A stretch of DNA of 64,000 bases. It comes from an uncultured delta proteobacterium. Lineage in GTDB: Bacteria > Desulfobacterota > Binatia > UBA9968. The first letter of the stretch is position 1; each line of letters starts with the position of its first letter. The DNA is taken from positions 32,001 to 96,000 of the forward strand of contig CAVSHR010000002.1 of the NCBI GenBank assembly GCA_963727625.1. Reading direction: 5' to 3'. Position numbers and translations under genes: made by a program. Positions 8,782 through 13,659 of this stretch are shown one piece after another. The notes below the pieces were generated by a model, which saw only the letters and a program-made list of their open reading frames with translations, did not search any database and was not told where the DNA came from.

Positions 8782-10233
8782 CTACAAGACTTCTATTCTT
8801 AGATTGCCGATCAGTTGCAGGATGTCGATCTGGCGGTCGATTTCGCCCTCGAGAAATTTCACATGGGTGACGTCGGCGGGGAACTGATTCAAGGCCGAGT
8901 CGAGGGACACCCAGTCGCCGAGCCAGATCTCGGACCAGGCGTGATAGTAAAACGCGCCGCGCAAATAGACCACGCCAACGACGGTTTTGGCGGGAATGCC
9001 GGCGGCGCGGGCCAGAGCGTTGAACAGCACCGTGTGTTCGTTACAATCACCTTTTTTGGTCCGCAGCACCTCAAGGGCGTTGGGGATGCTCACGGTCGGC
9101 TCTTTGGCGATTTCTTTGTACACCCAATCTTTGATTTTCAGCGCGGCCCTCAGTGCGTTGGTTTCACCATGCAAAATTTGCGCGCTGAGCGCGCGGATGC
9201 TCGGGTGATCCGACTGCAGGAAGGGGGTCGGCTGCAAGTAGGATTGCAAACGCGCTTGCTTGATCGGAATCTTGTACGCGCTGACTTGCCTTAGTTCTTC
9301 GCGGTGGATTTCCAATCGATCGCCGTCGAGGCGCTGGCGGCCGCCGGTGAGCTGGAAGTTGCCGAGATGGATGCCGCTGAGTCTTAACCGGATCGCTTGT
9401 TTCGCCAGCGCATCCGGGATCGGCGTTGCCACCGGGATGGCGGTTTGAGCGACGATATCCAAAGACACGCCGCGCGAAGGCAGATTCTTGGCCTCCTCCG
9501 AGCTCTGGCGTAGGAGCGACAAACCGGCGGGAGACTCTTCCTTGAGTGTGCGGCCCTGCCCGTCGACCCAGGAAAGCACCGAGATGCCGCGAAAGCTTTG
9601 GCGCAACTTGATCGCCGGTTCGGTGTGATCACCGATGCGGATCTGCTCCCGGCCTTCGATGACGACCGTGGTGACTTGCTGTGAAAGCGTGGAGGGGTCG
9701 AAAGTCGAAAAAAAGAATTTCTTGCCGGTCTCCAATTGCTGGGTGACGACGTAGGGTTTGAGCGCCGCGAGCAGATAGGGTGCTTGAGTCAAGGCAATCT
9801 CCCGCTTGGACTCGTTACCTGCGGAATCGACTTCTAACACGAGTTTGCCTTCGTGCACCGCGCCACGCGCGCCGAAGCGGATATCTTTTGAGGCGAGCTC
9901 GAAGTCGAATCGTTCCAAGATCCAGTCTTCGTTGGCGTCCATCTCGAGGCGCGTCCTGGCCGGCTGAACGGAGCCGAGCAGGTTTAGATTCAAGACCGAC
10001 TGGTCGCGCAGAGTGTAGCCTTTGGGCCTGGGCGTGATGGTTTGCGAGGCGTAGCCGATTTTTTCGCCGCGGTAAAAAATCCCCCACCACTCCTCAATGT
10101 TCTCGGAGATCTTCTCGGTGCCGCGCAGGGTGATGACCGGCGGCGGCGCGGCGATCTGGCGCTTGACGAGCAGAACGTTCATCGCGCACCAGAAAAGCAC
10201 GATGACGACGCCGATGGATTGCTTAGCGAGCAT
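8782..10233 (-). CDS. Membrane-anchored/secreted transglutaminase-like domain protein
   Basis: N-terminal hydrophobic segment; GDCNEH...HAWSE...SLD Cys-His-Asp triad. Confidence 0.85.
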   Translation of the reverse strand: MLAKQSIGVVIVLFWCAMNVLLVKRQIAAPPPVITLRGTEKISENIEEWWGIFYRGEKIGYASQTITPRPKGYTLRDQSVLNLNLLGSVQPARTRLEMDANEDWILERFDFELASKDIRFGARGAVHEGKLVLEVDSAGNESKREIALTQAPYLLAALKPYVVTQQLETGKKFFFSTFDPSTLSQQVTTVVIEGREQIRIGDHTEPAIKLRQSFRGISVLSWVDGQGRTLKEESPAGLSLLRQSSEEAKNLPSRGVSLDIVAQTAIPVATPIPDALAKQAIRLRLSGIHLGNFQLTGGRQRLDGDRLEIHREELRQVSAYKIPIKQARLQSYLQPTPFLQSDHPSIRALSAQILHGETNALRAALKIKDWVYKEIAKEPTVSIPNALEVLRTKKGDCNEHTVLFNALARAAGIPAKTVVGVVYLRGAFYYHAWSEIWLGDWVSLDSALNQFPADVTHVKFLEGEIDRQIDILQLIGNLRIEVL

Positions 10234-10478: not shown

Positions 10479-10952
10479 TTGGAAACCACCGCACCGGAAA
10501 TAAAATTTGCCGCGGATCGGATGCTCGGCAGGCTGGCGAAGTGGCTCCGTGTCCTAGGACAGGATGTCATCTACGGTCAGCATTTGACCGGCTATGGTTT
10601 GATCCGCGCCGCACGGGCCGAATGCCGTTTGATTCTGACTCGCGACCGGCGCTTGAAGCAAAAACAGCCGCCGCCGTTTATTCTTATCGACAGCGATCAC
10701 TATCGCGAGCAAGTGCGCCAGGTGATCGAAACCTGTCAGCTTACGATCGGCGCCGCGATTTTTACCCGTTGCGTCGATTGCAATGCATTATTGCAGCCCA
10801 AGGCCAAAGAAACCGTGGAGACGTTGGTTCCGCCCTACGTTTTTGCCACCCAGGAGACATTTTTCCGGTGCCCGGTCTGCCGAAAGGTTTATTGGCCCGC
10901 CACGCATCATAAAAGAATGCTGGAACAGTTGAAGCAAATGGGCGTCCGGTGA
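10479..10952 (+). CDS. Mut7-C RNase (PIN-like) domain protein with Zn ribbon
   Basis: F.ADRMLGRLAKWLR.LG.D, ILTRD, RCxxCN, CPVC.K.YW...H. Confidence 0.9.
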   Translation: METTAPEIKFAADRMLGRLAKWLRVLGQDVIYGQHLTGYGLIRAARAECRLILTRDRRLKQKQPPPFILIDSDHYREQVRQVIETCQLTIGAAIFTRCVDCNALLQPKAKETVETLVPPYVFATQETFFRCPVCRKVYWPATHHKRMLEQLKQMGVR

Positions 10953-11005
10953 CCTAGAAATTCGCTTTTTTGTGTGTTAAAAACTCAGGCTGTCGTTAAA
11001 TTGTT

Positions 11006-11342
11006 TCCCCGGTAGCTCAGTCGGTAGAGCAGTTGGCTGTAAATATTTAGAGTTGCAGCTTTCCGTCGTGAGGCGGAATGAAAAATCGGGTGAATTCAGG
11101 GGAGCCTAAGGAAGAAGTTCGCTTCTTCGATGGTAATCCTGAGCGAAGCCTGCCGAATGGGGAGTTAGTAGGCAGGAACGTGCAGAGACTAGAGGTTGAG
11201 GACCCCATCCAATAAGACCTCGTCAGCGCCCGACACCCGTCACGAGTTCGTGCTCCGGGTGATGAGATAGTCCAAGCCTGGTAGAAATGCCAGGGCACTT
11301 GTAACCAATTGGTCGGGGGTTCGAGTCCCTCCCGGGGAGCCA
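11006..11342 (+). tRNA. tRNA-Asn(GUU), intron-split: exon1 11006-11040, exon2 11302-11342
   Basis: Joined exons give a 76-nt cloverleaf: acceptor TCCCCGG/CCGGGGA, D-arm GCTC/GAGC, anticodon stem GTTGG/CCAAT with loop CT-GTT-AA, GTTCGAGTC T-arm, G73, encoded CCA. Confidence 0.93.
11041..11301 (+). ncRNA. Group I self-splicing intron (261 nt, no ORF) in the tRNA anticodon at 35/36
   Basis: P1 GCUGU/GCAGC with U-G wobble at the 5' splice site; P4 TTCAGG/CCTGAG; GCAGAGACTA and GAGATAGTCC forming P7 GACTA/TAGTC; terminal G at 11301. Confidence 0.92.
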
Positions 11343-11349
11343 GCTTTTA

Positions 11350-11385
11350 ACTCCGCTTCGGTGATTACTCTCACCGAAGCGGAGT
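11350..11385. other. Perfect 15-bp stem-loop immediately 3' of the tRNA
   Basis: ACTCCGCTTCGGTGA-TTACTC-TCACCGAAGCGGAGT; no U-tract follows. Confidence 0.7.
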
Positions 11386-11433
11386 CCGCCAAGTCAATTC
11401 TGATCATGCGCCAGAGCGGCAGGAGGTCTTCCG

Positions 11434-13659
11434 ATGGCATCTTCGAAACAAATCGTAGGTAATCCAACTCCGAGAGTCGAAGGCGAGCTGAAGGTCAGCG
11501 GCGAGGCGAAATACGCGGTGGACGTGACTCTGCCGGGCATGTCGTGGGGCAAGCTGCTGCGCAGCCCGATCGCCTCAGCAAAGATCAAATCCATCGACAC
11601 AAGCAAGGCGGCGGCTCTGCCGGGTGTGCACGCGATCGTCACCGGGCAGGATTGCGCGGGACTGAAAATCGGCCGGCGACTTTATGACATGCCGATCCTC
11701 GCCGACGGCGAAGTTCGATTCATCGGCGAAAAAGTCGCGGCGGTAGCGGCCGAAAGCGAGGAGATCGCCGAAGAGGCGGTCAATTTGATCGAGGTCGAAT
11801 ACGAAGAAACCGAGCCGTTGCTTGATCCCGTCGAAGCGCTCAAGCCGGGGGCGAAGCTTCTCCATCCCGATGTCATGAACTACAAGGGTTTGCCCAAACC
11901 GCTCAAGGAGCCGACCAACGATTTTGTCTACGTCACCTGGGGCAAGGGCGATGTCGAGGCCGGCTTCCGCCAAGCGGATGTGATCGTCGAAAATACTTTC
12001 ACCACGCCGGTCGTGCATCAGAGCTACATCGAGCCGCATTCCTGCGTGGTTAGCGCGGCGGCCGACGGCTCGGCGGAGTTTTGGTCGTGCAGCAAGGTGC
12101 CCTATGGTGTCCGCGATCAAGTCGCCAACGCGCTCCAGCTGCCGCAGGAAAAGCTCAACTTCAATCCCGTGTATATCGGCGGCGACTTCGGCGGTAAGGG
12201 CGATTTCATGGATCTCGCCGTAGTTTATCTGCTGTCCAAGAAAGCCGGACGGCCGGTAAAATTAGTGATGGATTACGAAGAAGAGTTTGTCGCGGGCAAT
12301 CCGCGCCACGCTTCGATTATCCACGTCAAAACCGGTGTAAAGAAAGACGGTACGCTGGTGGCACACCGGATGAGCTTCATTTTCGACAGTGGCGCCTACG
12401 GCGCGTTCAAGCCCAACGCTTTTCTCAACGGCCCGCACCTGTCCGCCGGGCCATACAAGATTCCTTACGTATTCATCGAAGAGCATATGGTTTACACCAA
12501 TAAGATTCCCTGCGGCCATATGCGCTCGCCGGGCGATCCCCAAGGCTTTTTTGCCAACGAGAGCCAGATGGACATGATCGCGAAACGGTTGGGCATGGAT
12601 CCGATCAAGCTGCGCCAGAAAAATTTCATGCACGACGGCGACATCGATCCGACCGGTGAGGAGTACAGCTATATTAAAACCGACGAGACTCTTAAAAAGG
12701 CGCTGGGCGATTCCGGCTACGAAAAACCCAAGGCGAAAAACGTTGGGCGCGGTGTCGCGTTGGTCCAGTGGACGCCCGCCGGGGGCATCGGAACGGTGGC
12801 GATCTCGCTCGATGAAAAAGGCGAGGCGACGATTTCTTCCGCCATGGCCGATCAAGGGGCGGGCACTTACACGGTGCTCAGCGAAATCGTCGCCGAGGAA
12901 CTTAAAATTCCTTTAAGCCAGATCAAAATTCACCAACTCGACACGCAGAAAGGCGTGAAAGACACCGGCGTCGGCGGCAGCCGGGCGACGCGGGTCTACG
13001 GTAATGCCGGTTACGCTGCGGCACTGAAGGCTGTCGATGCGATCAAGCAGGCGGCGGCGAGCCAAATGGGCGTGGCGGCGGATCAAATCACGCTCGCCAA
13101 GGGTGGGGCGCTGCACCCGCGTATGGAGCGGCGCTTGACCTATGGCGAGATCGTCAAAGCCAACGGTGGGCCGATCCGGGTGGATGCGACATTTAATGAT
13201 ACTTCCAAGATTCACGCGGCGTCCATGTGCGTCCAGGTGGCGGAAGTGGAAGTCGATCCGCAAACCGGACAGGTCGAGCTCAAGAAATTCACCTCGACGC
13301 ACAACACCGGCACGGTGCTTAACCCGCTGATGCATCAGGGGCAGATCGAAGGCGCCAGCATGACCGGCATCGGCTATACGCTGATGGAAGAGGTCGTCAT
13401 TAGCGACGGTAAAGTCGCCACGACTCACTTCGGCGAGTACAAGATCCCGACGATCAAGGACGTTCCGATGTTTAAGGGTTCCGTTACGGAAGAGCCGCAG
13501 GGCGCGGGCCCTTATGACAGCATGCCGATCGGCGAGACCGGCAATATTCCCACGGCGGCGGCCATCGCCAATGCGGTGGAGGACGCCTGCGGCGTGCGGA
13601 TCAAGAGCCTGCCGATCACGGCGGAAAAGATTTACCAAGCGCTGCACGGCGCCAAGTGA
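11434..13659 (+). CDS. Xanthine dehydrogenase/CoxL family molybdopterin-binding subunit
   Basis: GGDFGGK, MRSPG, DQGAG, QGQIEG, IGETG motifs; GGAGG RBS. Confidence 0.92.
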   Translation: MASSKQIVGNPTPRVEGELKVSGEAKYAVDVTLPGMSWGKLLRSPIASAKIKSIDTSKAAALPGVHAIVTGQDCAGLKIGRRLYDMPILADGEVRFIGEKVAAVAAESEEIAEEAVNLIEVEYEETEPLLDPVEALKPGAKLLHPDVMNYKGLPKPLKEPTNDFVYVTWGKGDVEAGFRQADVIVENTFTTPVVHQSYIEPHSCVVSAAADGSAEFWSCSKVPYGVRDQVANALQLPQEKLNFNPVYIGGDFGGKGDFMDLAVVYLLSKKAGRPVKLVMDYEEEFVAGNPRHASIIHVKTGVKKDGTLVAHRMSFIFDSGAYGAFKPNAFLNGPHLSAGPYKIPYVFIEEHMVYTNKIPCGHMRSPGDPQGFFANESQMDMIAKRLGMDPIKLRQKNFMHDGDIDPTGEEYSYIKTDETLKKALGDSGYEKPKAKNVGRGVALVQWTPAGGIGTVAISLDEKGEATISSAMADQGAGTYTVLSEIVAEELKIPLSQIKIHQLDTQKGVKDTGVGGSRATRVYGNAGYAAALKAVDAIKQAAASQMGVAADQITLAKGGALHPRMERRLTYGEIVKANGGPIRVDATFNDTSKIHAASMCVQVAEVEVDPQTGQVELKKFTSTHNTGTVLNPLMHQGQIEGASMTGIGYTLMEEVVISDGKVATTHFGEYKIPTIKDVPMFKGSVTEEPQGAGPYDSMPIGETGNIPTAAAIANAVEDACGVRIKSLPITAEKIYQALHGAK

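What the first reader, a model, noticed from the sequence alone, without database searches (positions are those of the whole stretch)
11006..11342. tRNA-Asn(GUU) interrupted inside the anticodon (35/36) by a compact group I intron
Seen: a 35-nt 5' exon ending ...GGCTGT (11040) and a 41-nt 3' exon starting TAACCAATT (11302) join into a canonical 76-nt tRNA-Asn with U1-A72, G73 and CCA. The 261 nt between them show a P1 helix (GCUGU/GCAGC, splice-site U paired to G), a possible P10 (GUUG with exon UAAC), P4 (UUCAGG/CCUGAG), P7 (GACUA/UAGUC) and a terminal G, with no endonuclease ORF. Established: the classic bacterial tRNA group I introns are in Leu(UAA), fMet(CAU), Ile(CAU) and Arg(CCU), at other positions. 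I recall 35/36 introns in tRNA-Asn being reported for Patescibacteria but cannot verify that here; this genome looks like a large metabolically versatile organism, so this may be a new host lineage (inference). If this is the only tRNA-Asn, Asn decoding depends on self-splicing.
Basis: partly seen in the sequence, partly recalled or inferred. Interest (0 to 1): 0.9.

Follow-up and report, generated by a model that had tools for sequence, protein, structure and literature searches.

The report
Self-splicing intron splits only tRNA-Asn gene
The genome's only asparagine tRNA gene is interrupted inside its anticodon by a compact group I ribozyme intron that has lost its endonuclease gene; it belongs to a mobile intron family found at this same site in many bacterial phyla, so it is real and tidy but not a new kind of element.

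Summary
Window 11041-11301 is a 261-nt group I intron (Rfam RF00028, 86.7 bits, E 1e-20). It lies between tRNA positions 35 and 36 of a canonical 76-nt tRNA-Asn(GUU). Eight genomes of the same genus carry the intronless gene, identical to the two exons joined at exactly that point and at the same chromosomal locus. No other tRNA-Asn was found in the 6.6-Mb assembly, so Asn decoding should depend on splicing. The novelty was overrated. A 20-nt core motif found at least 119 loci in named genomes. Of these, 97 are tRNA-Asn(GUU) split at the same site, under titles naming about 20 higher taxa; 8 are the classical tRNA(CAU) 36/37 intron. The fold is supported by covariation across 98 sequences. Twenty of the 97 carry an HNH endonuclease ORF of about 115 aa in the P1 loop, whose C-terminus is read from the ribozyme core. 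The window's copy has no ORF. Two same-genus alleles have frameshifted ORFs. Five of five complete chromosomes carrying the intron lack an uninterrupted tRNA-Asn. Splicing itself was not shown. I file it as a new member of a known kind.

The parts
11006..11040 (+). 5' exon of tRNA-Asn(GUU), tRNA positions 1-35 (acceptor, D arm, 5' anticodon stem, C32 U33 G34 U35)
   Evidence: Identical (0 mismatches) to the 5' part of intronless genes in 8 same-genus genomes.
11041..11301 (+). Group I intron, 261 nt, no endonuclease ORF; terminal omega-G at 11301
   Evidence: RF00028 at 86.7 bits, E 1e-20. ARAGORN calls i(36,261). Fold z = -4.55. Family covariation.
11302..11342 (+). 3' exon of tRNA-Asn(GUU), positions 36-76 including the encoded CCA (11340-11342)
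11035..11060 (+). P1: exon 11035-11040 (GGCUGU) pairs with the internal guide 11055-11060 (GCAGCU). U11040-G11055 is the splice-site wobble. The 14-nt loop 11041-11054 is where relatives carry the HNH ORF.
   Evidence: Read from the sequence. Recovered by the MFE fold. The ORF insert is seen at this place in relatives.
11062..11077 (+). P2 hairpin (11062-11067 / 11072-11077)
   Evidence: All 6 pairs show changes on both sides; 99.3% of cells paired.
11086..11092 (+). P3 5' strand, pairs with 11227-11233
   Evidence: 7 pairs, 100% paired, almost invariant.
11096..11142 (+). P4 (11096-11101/11137-11142), P5 (11104-11106/11132-11134) and P5a (11111-11114/11125-11128) arm
   Evidence: P4/P5 96.4% paired; P5a covaries.
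11143..11183 (+). P6 (11143-11145/11181-11183) and P6a (11149-11154/11171-11176)
   Evidence: All 6 P6a pairs covary, 99% paired.
11187..11191 (+). P7 5' strand GACUA, pairs with UAGUC at 11268-11272 (pseudoknot with P3; guanosine-binding helix by analogy)
   Evidence: 5 pairs invariant in 98 of 98 sequences. Invariant pairs say nothing from covariation; the support is the Rfam model.
11197..11222 (+). Extra hairpin between P7 and the 3' strand of P3 (11197-11201/11218-11222)
   Evidence: Only 66.4% of cells paired in A3; the alignment is poor here. Also present in the tRNA(CAU) relatives.
11227..11233 (+). P3 3' strand
11234..11261 (+). P8 hairpin (11234-11239/11256-11261)
   Evidence: 5 of 6 pairs covary.
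11268..11272 (+). P7 3' strand UAGUC
11277..11294 (+). P9 hairpin with GAAA loop (11277-11283/11288-11294)
   Evidence: All 7 pairs covary, 99% paired.
10479..10952 (+). Upstream neighbour, a Mut7-C RNase-domain protein (context only; conserved beside the tRNA in relatives)
   Evidence: Pfam PF01927, E 1.3e-39. Synteny.
11434..13659 (+). Downstream neighbour, a molybdopterin-binding oxidoreductase of the xanthine dehydrogenase family (context only)
   Evidence: Pfam PF02738, PF20256 and PF01315. Synteny.

Best explanation
Window 11006-11342 is the single tRNA-Asn(GUU) gene of this genome. By the titles of two relatives of the same order, the host belongs to 'Candidatus Binatia'. The gene is interrupted between U35 and U36 by a 261-nt group I ribozyme. 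The inferred mechanism is as follows. In the precursor the exon anticodon stem forms around the intron. The exon end GGCUGU pairs with the guide GCAGCU (P1, U35-G wobble). A free guanosine bound at P7 attacks after U35. The terminal G (11301) then takes the same site, and U35 is joined to U36, giving the CUGUUAA loop. The intron is a copy, without its endonuclease ORF, of a mobile intron family specialised on this one site of tRNA-Asn genes. Intact members carry an HNH homing-endonuclease ORF of about 115 aa in the P1 loop. That ORF reads on through the guide sequence, P2, P3 and P4. The family is a sister of the classical tRNA-Ile2(CAU) anticodon-loop introns. The window's copy fits a late stage of the homing cycle: the endonuclease is lost and the ribozyme is kept, because the cell has no other tRNA-Asn. 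Shown here: anatomy, family membership, site, uniqueness of the gene, and polymorphism at one locus. Inferred: actual splicing, homing by the HNH protein, and the order of events.
For: RF00028 matches the full model at 86.7 bits, E 1e-20. The spliced product is a canonical tRNA-Asn. Intronless alleles in 8 same-genus genomes equal the exact exon join and share both flanks. ARAGORN finds 49 tRNAs and one tmRNA but no other tRNA-Asn in the 98.45%-complete assembly. A pattern for an uninterrupted tRNA-Asn finds 0 in G000 and exactly 1 in each of 4 intronless controls. All listed helices are standard pairs in the window copy. In 98 family members, 93.2% of cells are paired against 43% or less when slid, 33 of 58 pairs change on both sides, and the covariation score is 0.441 against 0.151, reached by 0 of 500 shuffles. 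Of 119 motif loci, 97 are tRNA-Asn(GUU) at 35/36. An HNH ORF sits in the P1 loop in 20 of those 97. Twelve intact ORFs all match phrog_2255 'HNH endonuclease', best E 2.3e-33. It is intact in G033 (114 aa), frameshifted in G020 and G005, and survives as a 3' remnant in G112. Five of 5 complete chromosomes with the intron have no uninterrupted tRNA-Asn(GUU), which implies the type must splice in vivo. The whole core aligns with 8 tRNA(CAU) introns at 53-62% identity.
Against: No splicing was observed. The RNA-library contigs cover the locus, but they only show DNA-like precursor forms and tRNA-Asn genes of other organisms. A spliced junction would in any case be indistinguishable from the intronless alleles of relatives. 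The assembly has 15 contigs and 6.3% contamination, so an unassembled second tRNA-Asn cannot be excluded. P10 is not conserved. The hairpin between P7 and P3' has only 66% pairing support. The family was collected with an exact 20-nt motif, so invariance of that stretch follows from the selection, and the counts are lower bounds, not frequencies. HNH activity and target are inferred from family membership only; Pfam HNH stays below its cut-off. The uninterrupted-tRNA pattern needs an exact GAGC and GTTCRA, so a divergent second copy could escape it.
Confidence: 0.88

Rival explanations
1. The intron no longer splices. The locus is a tRNA-Asn pseudogene, and the working tRNA-Asn lies in an unassembled part of the genome.
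For: The assembly is a 15-contig draft, 98.45% complete with 6.3% contamination. tRNA genes are often missed in drafts. One relative (G025) has a decayed copy at the syntenic place with a truncated 5' exon, plus an intact intronless gene elsewhere.
Against: The window copy keeps every column that is invariant in 98 sequences and forms all helices. Both exons are identical to functional-looking intronless genes of 8 relatives. All other 19 amino acids and SeC have tRNAs in the assembly. Five of 5 complete chromosomes with this intron type have no other tRNA-Asn.
Confidence: 0.05
2. The intron is removed in vivo only with help from a host protein (an RNA chaperone or a tRNA-binding cofactor), and is not an autonomous self-splicer under cellular conditions.
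For: Many group I introns need protein helpers (review PMC3984707, passages seen). P10 is weak. An unusual extra hairpin sits between P7 and P3'.
Against: This is a compact intron with a complete, strongly paired core. Its relatives of the tRNA(CAU) type belong to the class whose Azoarcus member self-splices (named in PMC3984707 and in the abstract of PMC13168695). The family lives in about 20 higher taxa, which argues against dependence on a lineage-specific cofactor.
Confidence: 0.1
3. The contig, or the intron in it, is an assembly or binning artefact, such as a chimera with another organism's intron-bearing tRNA-Asn.
For: Contamination is estimated at 6.3%. In soil RNA libraries the closest forms differ from the window at several positions and carry the ORF.
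Against: The locus lies inside an 821,574-base contig. Both flanks are syntenic with same-genus genomes, both intron-bearing and intronless. The intron (86-87% to G005 and G020) and the downstream flank (83-84%) diverge to a similar degree.
Confidence: 0.02

Closest known systems
Classical bacterial tRNA-Ile2(CAU) anticodon-loop group I intron (Azoarcus type; 'Ile2.5Ug', subgroup IC3 as stated in bioRxiv 10.1101/2020.01.27.920355)
   Same: Sits in the anticodon loop of a bacterial tRNA, with U at -1 in a wobble pair and a terminal G. Eight betaproteobacterial copies caught by the same 20-nt motif align over the entire core (P2-P9, including the extra hairpin) at 53-62% identity to the window, with identical J2/3-P3-P4 and P7 strands.
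   Different: Inserted one nucleotide further 3' (36/37, after the anticodon) in another tRNA, with a different guide sequence. None of the 8 copies seen has an ORF, against 20 of 97 for the Asn type. I did not compare with the Azoarcus sequence itself, and the IC3 assignment of the Asn type was not tested with subgroup models.
[quoted passage not shown]
   Same: Splits the anticodon itself, so the anticodon exists only after splicing. Compact and usually without an ORF. Presence is sporadic among relatives (passages of PMC5733544; preprint text).
   Different: The position is 34/35 in tRNA-Leu. Not compared by sequence here.
[quoted passage not shown]
   Same: A tRNA anticodon-loop group I intron that carries a homing-endonuclease gene aimed at the tRNA gene.
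   Different: Another tRNA and another position ('fMet.2Ug'). The enzyme family is, from my recollection only, not HNH. I do not know the place of that ORF in the fold.
Catalogue of 21 tRNA/group I intron settings (Williams 2020, bioRxiv 10.1101/2020.01.27.920355)
   Same: Same method logic (Rfam model plus ARAGORN with introns). In that paper's numbering the window would be 'Asn.4Ug'. The 2016 WWE3 genomes that carry it (L079, L111) are of the kind that study scanned.
   Different: The text that I could read (whole main text) never names Asn. Table 1 and Fig. 3 are images and the supplements are closed, so I cannot tell whether this setting is among its 17 new ones.

Membership tests
Group I catalytic intron (Rfam RF00028) | Covariance-model score at or above the curated gathering score | tested here: met
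   86.7 bits against 50, E 1e-20, model positions 1-253 of 253 (the same hit).
Group I catalytic intron (Rfam RF00028) | P1 formed by the 5' exon end and an internal guide, with U at -1 in a U-G wobble | tested here: met
   GGCUGU (11035-11040) pairs with GCAGCU (11055-11060), U11040-G11055. The exon end is GGCTGT in 95 and GACTGT in 2 of 97 family members.
Group I catalytic intron (Rfam RF00028) | Terminal guanosine (omega-G) before the 3' splice site | tested here: met
   G11301. The junction is fixed independently by intronless alleles.
Group I catalytic intron (Rfam RF00028) | Conserved core P3-P4-P6-P7-P8 with the P3/P7 pseudoknot | tested here: met
   All helices are present in the window. 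Family pairing is 93.2%, with 33 pairs changed on both sides. P3, P4 and P7 are invariant, so they are supported by the model, not by covariation.
Group I catalytic intron (Rfam RF00028) | Guanosine-initiated self-splicing | not testable with these tools
   RNA-library contigs give no verdict. Indirect only: it is the sole tRNA-Asn gene in G000 and in 5 of 5 complete carrier chromosomes.
Group I catalytic intron (Rfam RF00028) | P10 between the guide and the 3' exon | tested here: inconclusive
   A 4-bp GUUG/UAAC can be drawn but shares G11055 with P1. The word is GTTG in 15 and ATTG in 17 of 98 sequences, and varied otherwise.
Bacterial tRNA anticodon-loop group I introns (IC3-type lineage) | Insertion within the 7-nt anticodon loop of a bacterial tRNA, enclosed by the exon anticodon stem | tested here: met
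   Loop C-U-G-U|U-A-A. The anticodon stem forms in the MFE fold.
Bacterial tRNA anticodon-loop group I introns (IC3-type lineage) | Sequence homology of the core to a classical member | tested here: met
   Aligns end to end with 8 tRNA(CAU) 36/37 introns at 53-62% identity.
Bacterial tRNA anticodon-loop group I introns (IC3-type lineage) | Formal subgroup IC3 assignment | not tested
   No subgroup models were available. An extra hairpin between P7 and P3' is present.
tRNA-Asn(GUU) 35/36 intron family (defined here) | Same tRNA, same internucleotide site, alignable ribozyme | tested here: met
   97 of 119 motif loci. Also 7 alleles in relatives and other genomes of the phylum sample: G020, G005, G029, G033, G434, G403, G112. 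The window is row 1 of alignments A1 and A3.
HNH homing-endonuclease-bearing mobile intron | An endonuclease ORF inside the intron | tested here: not met
   The window's P1 loop is 14 nt, and the intron ORFs have no Pfam match. The ORF is present in 20 of 97 family members and in the alleles of 4 other genomes: G020, G005, G033 and G434.

The most novel reading that the evidence does not exclude
The tRNA-Asn 35/36 intron and its small HNH endonuclease form a mobile pair found across bacterial phyla that has not been described in print beyond, at most, a row in a preprint table. The endonuclease sits in the P1 loop. Its last ~20 residues (...LQL...EKSGEFRE) are encoded by the ribozyme's own guide, P2, P3 and P4 strands, so one stretch of about 60 nt serves both as catalytic RNA and as coding sequence. 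In carriers the invaded gene is the only tRNA-Asn, so a selfish element has become indispensable for decoding one amino acid in lineages from Patescibacteria to Nitrospirota and Binatia.
Probability: 0.45. Interest if true: 0.6.

Novelty: new member of a known kind. Interest (0 to 1): 0.45.

Why it matters
For annotation, standard tRNA finders report this genome, and at least 97 others, as lacking tRNA-Asn. ARAGORN found none in the window without its intron option. This distorts completeness and codon-capacity estimates for many uncultured lineages. For biology, the locus gives a clean natural series of the homing cycle at one site: an intact HNH gene, frameshifted genes, a 3' remnant, no ORF, an empty site, and one decayed copy beside a second gene. 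Part of this series lies within a single genus. It also shows a case where translation of a whole amino acid hangs on a ribozyme. The compact 261-nt ribozyme is backed by a 98-sequence alignment with strong covariation, which makes it a ready substrate for splicing and folding studies. The overlap of the endonuclease reading frame with the ribozyme core is a small but testable case of dual coding.

Tried and rejected
RNA evidence. The look-up of sequencing runs listed 20 runs, none holding half of the words; 5 were RNA, with shares of 0.05-0.07. Read laying on 4 RNA runs (contigs only) covered just 11004-11355. Two contigs bridge 11041 to 11051 with 302 other letters between, which is the ORF-bearing variant. 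Loose ends at 11040 run into 3' exons that differ from the window's, so they belong to other organisms' tRNA-Asn. This gives no verdict on splicing. A spliced junction would also be identical to the intronless allele of relatives.

Brute-force enumeration of splice sites with ARAGORN was too permissive, giving many artefactual anticodons. I replaced it with a rule: an Asn(gtt) solution with 4 loop nucleotides before the junction, T at -1 and G at omega.

BLAST of a 76-nt intronless tRNA-Asn against 5 complete chromosomes was ambiguous because other tRNAs match. I replaced it with a structural pattern and positive controls.

Pfam alone leaves the ORF below the HNH cut-off. A PDB profile search gave only a weak hit to the HNH part of a group II maturase (E 0.0017). 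PHROGs settled the family.

Phage and plasmid collections gave no blastn match to the intron. The viral contigs motif scan gave 5 loci, none in tRNA-Asn. No vector for spread was found.

The promoter/terminator scan of 10850-11480 gave nothing useful.

Literature. Searches on 'group I intron' with 'tRNA-Asn', 'tRNAAsn', 'tRNA+Asn+HNH', 'tFind', and 'tRNA genes+anticodon loop+phyla' returned no paper that names a bacterial tRNA-Asn group I intron in title, abstract or the passages I opened. The library lacks most subscription journals. Table 1 and Fig. 3 of the Williams preprint are images, and supplements are closed, so 'not in print' is not established.

I considered and dropped a protein-spliced (bulge-helix-bulge) intron, because a full group I model match and P1/omega-G explain the boundaries.
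Full report
THE OBSERVATION. The sequence is as described. Positions 11006-11040 (35 nt, ending GGCTGT) and 11302-11342 (41 nt, starting TAACC and ending CCA) are separated by 261 nt that begin AAAT and end CTTG. ARAGORN in its default mode finds no tRNA anywhere in the 64-kb window. On a coordinate join of the two pieces it draws a canonical 76-nt tRNA-Asn(gtt) with loop C-U-G-U-U-A-A. With introns allowed it calls tRNA-Asn(gtt) with a 261-nt intron starting at position 36 on the unspliced DNA. Rfam's group I model RF00028 matches 11031-11294 over all 253 model positions at 86.7 bits (gathering score 50), E 1e-20. It is the only Rfam family above threshold in the window.

THE JUNCTION IS FIXED BY NATURE. 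Among 40 relatives searched with the 337-nt stretch, eight genomes of the same genus (loci L009-L016) carry an uninterrupted gene. Its two parts match the window's exons with 0 mismatches and abut exactly at 35|36. No neighbouring register gives the same product, because the intron starts with A and ends with G while both exon ends are T. These intronless genes and the intron-bearing alleles of G020 and G005 share the window's upstream and downstream flanks. This is therefore a presence/absence polymorphism at one orthologous locus, not two different genes. By the coordinates, 18 of 24 same-genus relatives have adjacent exon halves (intronless). Two (G020, G005) have the intron. One shows only the 3' half. 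Three give no tRNA-Asn match at all: G001 (no match), G002 and G015 (weak hits that look like other tRNAs), at 65-84% completeness.

ANATOMY. P1 is GGCUGU (11035-11040) with GCAGCU (11055-11060), with U11040-G11055 at the splice site and a 14-nt loop. The remaining helices were transferred from a consensus fold:
- P2: 11062-67 / 11072-77
- P3: 11086-92 / 11227-33
- P4: 11096-101 / 11137-42
- P5: 11104-06 / 11132-34
- P5a: 11111-14 / 11125-28
- P6: 11143-45 / 11181-83
- P6a: 11149-54 / 11171-76
- P7: GACUA 11187-91 / UAGUC 11268-72
- an extra hairpin between P7 and the 3' strand of P3: 11197-201 / 11218-22
- P8: 11234-39 / 11256-61
- P9: 11277-83 / 11288-94
- omega-G: 11301

Every one of these pairs is a standard pair in the window copy. 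The window RNA folded alone (283 nt) gives -108.4 kcal/mol, z = -4.55, with 0 of 200 shuffles as stable. The fold recovers P1, P2, the P3-P9 helices and the exon anticodon stem closing around the intron. P10 as proposed (GUUG with UAAC) reuses G11055 and is not conserved: GTTG occurs in 15 of 98 and ATTG in 17 of 98.

THE ONLY tRNA-Asn. In the whole assembly (6,619,502 bases, 15 contigs, 98.45% complete, 6.3% contamination) ARAGORN lists 49 tRNAs and a tmRNA. These cover 19 amino acids and SeC but not Asn. A pattern for an uninterrupted tRNA-Asn(GUU) hits once in each of 4 intronless control genomes and not at all in G000.

THE FAMILY. Five of the 40 relatives hold intron-sized matches: G020, G005, G029, G033 and G025. 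Three of 400 further genomes sampled across the phylum do too: G434, G403 and G112. In seven of these eight the intron splits tRNA-Asn(GUU) at the same site. In G025 the 5' exon is truncated and an intact intronless gene lies elsewhere.

I classified them by in-silico splicing:
- 97 of 119 are tRNA-Asn(GUU) with the intron after the fourth loop nucleotide. The exon end is GGCTGT in 95 and GACTGT in 2.
- 8 of 119 are tRNA(CAU) with the intron after position 36, all from records labelled as Betaproteobacteria. This is the classical Ile2 setting.
- 14 are cut by the locus ends or unresolved. By eye, most of these show an Asn-type half; L065 and L077 do not.

My hand tally of the record titles for the 97 is:
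- 19 Nitrospirota-type labels
- 14 delta/Desulfobacterota-type
- 11 Eubacteriales or Clostridia
- 10 Acidobacteriota-type
- 5 WOR-3
- 5 Bacteroidota or Ignavibacteriota
- 4 Binatia
- 3 Chloroflexi
- 3 Bdellovibrionota
- 2 Stahlbacteria
- 2 Krumholzibacteriia
- one each of PVC group, Elusimicrobia, Omnitrophota, Gemmatimonadota, Pseudomonadota, Bipolaricaulota, WWE3, Cyanobacteria and Latescibacteria
- 10 unlabelled

These labels are the depositors' own. The counts are lower bounds from an exact-word search and give no frequency.

COVARIATION. An alignment of the window plus the 97 (A3, 98 distinct rows) was scored on 58 pairs, with P7 written as a pseudoknot. 93.2% of cells form standard pairs, against 34-43% when partners are slid by 1-3 columns. 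33 pairs show changes on both sides. There are 895 such cells against 258 in shuffles. The covariation score is 0.441 against 0.151, reached by 0 of 500 shuffles. P2, P5a, P6a, P8 and P9 covary at nearly every pair. P3, P4 and P7 are almost or fully invariant, which neither supports nor contradicts them. For the stretch used as the search word, invariance is forced by the selection. The extra hairpin is paired in only 66% of cells, partly because the alignment is poor there.

THE ENDONUCLEASE. Intron lengths are bimodal: 77 of 97 are 234-365 nt and 20 of 97 are 462-655 nt. The long ones, and the alleles of G020, G005, G033 and G434 (544-561 nt), carry about 290 extra nucleotides in the P1 loop. 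In G033 this is an intact 114-aa ORF. In G020 and G005 it is broken by frameshifts. In G112 (301 nt) only the last codons of the nuclease motif remain. Sixteen of the 20 long introns have an ORF that starts near the intron's 5' end and spans the CxxC...HH...CxxCH motif, and 4 are truncated. Twelve intact ORFs align well (A2). All 12 match phrog_2255 'HNH endonuclease' (best E 2.3e-33). Pfam HNH is matched by 10 of 12 at the lax reporting limit of E 0.1, best E 2.6e-4; the one score shown, member 1 (17.7 bits), is below the curated cut-off of 21.4. The best solved relative is the HNH part of a group II intron maturase (E 0.0017). In 8 of the 12 the reading frame runs on through the guide sequence, P2, J2/3, P3 and P4 (...LQL...EKSGEFRE) and stops at a UAA after P4, in or near P5; the equivalent in the window is 11107-11109. 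The 20-nt core word thus also encodes EKSGEFR. Because the ORF-free tRNA(CAU) relatives keep the same word, RNA function alone can explain its conservation; the ORF appears to borrow it. The window's P1 loop is 14 nt, so its endonuclease gene is gone.

DOES IT SPLICE? This was not shown. Metatranscriptome contigs give no verdict. The indirect argument is that in 5 of 5 complete chromosomes carrying this intron there is no uninterrupted tRNA-Asn(GUU), with 4 of 4 positive controls. Their titles read Pyrinomonadaceae, Nitrospirales twice, WOR-3 and Aminicenantes. The same holds in G000. Organisms cannot do without tRNA-Asn, so the type must be removed efficiently in vivo. The window copy differs from the consensus at no invariant position.

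HOST. Two relatives of the same order coincide with records titled 'Candidatus Binatia'. I use only that taxon word. The window's own record was not identified.

COMPARISON AND NOVELTY. The four classical tRNA settings are Leu.3Ug, Arg.5Ug, fMet.2Ug and Ile2.5Ug (Williams 2020, whole main text read). The present one would be 'Asn.4Ug'. That preprint announces 17 further settings, but they are listed only in an image, and Asn is not named in its text. Since WWE3 genomes of 2016 carry the intron (L079, L111), it was very probably found there. My five literature searches found no paper that names it. I therefore rate the window's feature as a new member of a known kind. The family-level features may not yet be described: the HNH gene in P1, the frame overlapping the core, and the fact that the invaded gene is the only tRNA-Asn across about 20 higher taxa.

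LIMITS. Supplements of papers were closed.

Noticed in passing
L002 1478-1702 (G000:C8:85440-85664), outside the window: This is a second group I core in the same genome (RF00028, 45.1 bits, below the cut-off of 50, E 7e-10). It directly follows a tRNA-Leu(CAA)-like 5' half, with C rather than U at -1 in an all-Watson-Crick P1, like the 'Leu.3Cg' type of the Williams preprint. After the core comes a 204-aa ORF on the opposite strand, and ARAGORN can only close the tRNA with a 1029-nt 'intron'. An intact tRNA-Leu(CAA) lies elsewhere (C9:101385-101470). It is probably a decayed copy.
   Followed up: partly
L149 (viral contig), about 70 nt upstream to 250 nt downstream of 9005-9024: A tRNA(CAU) gene with the classical 36/37 group I intron sits on an 83.7-kb viral contig, beside tRNA-Leu, Lys, Arg and Thr genes. 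The 2014 review PMC3984707 states that all phage introns seen to that date were in protein-coding genes.
   Followed up: partly
L008 1502-1818 (G025): At the syntenic place, after the Mut7-C gene, this relative keeps the intron and the 3' exon, but only the last ~6 nt of the 5' exon. An intact intronless tRNA-Asn lies elsewhere in its chromosome. This is an intron-bearing copy decaying once a second gene exists.
   Followed up: partly
L146, L147, L148, L150 (viral contigs) and L065: The same 20-nt core word, followed by an A[G/T]ATAGTC P7-like word, occurs where no tRNA half is visible. These may be related group I introns in other genes.
   Followed up: no
A3 columns ~67-165: L036, L060, L086, L099, L126, L136: Six family members share an insert beginning TGTCATTGCGAG in the P5a loop. 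In L126 it ends with the reverse complement of that word. Five of the six have WOR-3 or Stahlbacteria titles; L036 and L126 are unlabelled. It looks like a small inverted-repeat element nested in the intron.
   Followed up: no
window 11351-11384: A perfect 14-nt inverted repeat (loop of 6) starts 9 nt after the CCA end, without a T run. The consensus scan did not call it a terminator.
   Followed up: no
window 11041-11051 as laid in RNA runs X18, X19 (also X16, X17 loose ends): The nearest forms in soil RNA libraries (90-99% alike) carry 302 extra letters in the P1 loop, ending in an HNH-motif coding stretch. ORF-bearing close relatives of the window's intron therefore circulate in soils.
   Followed up: partly
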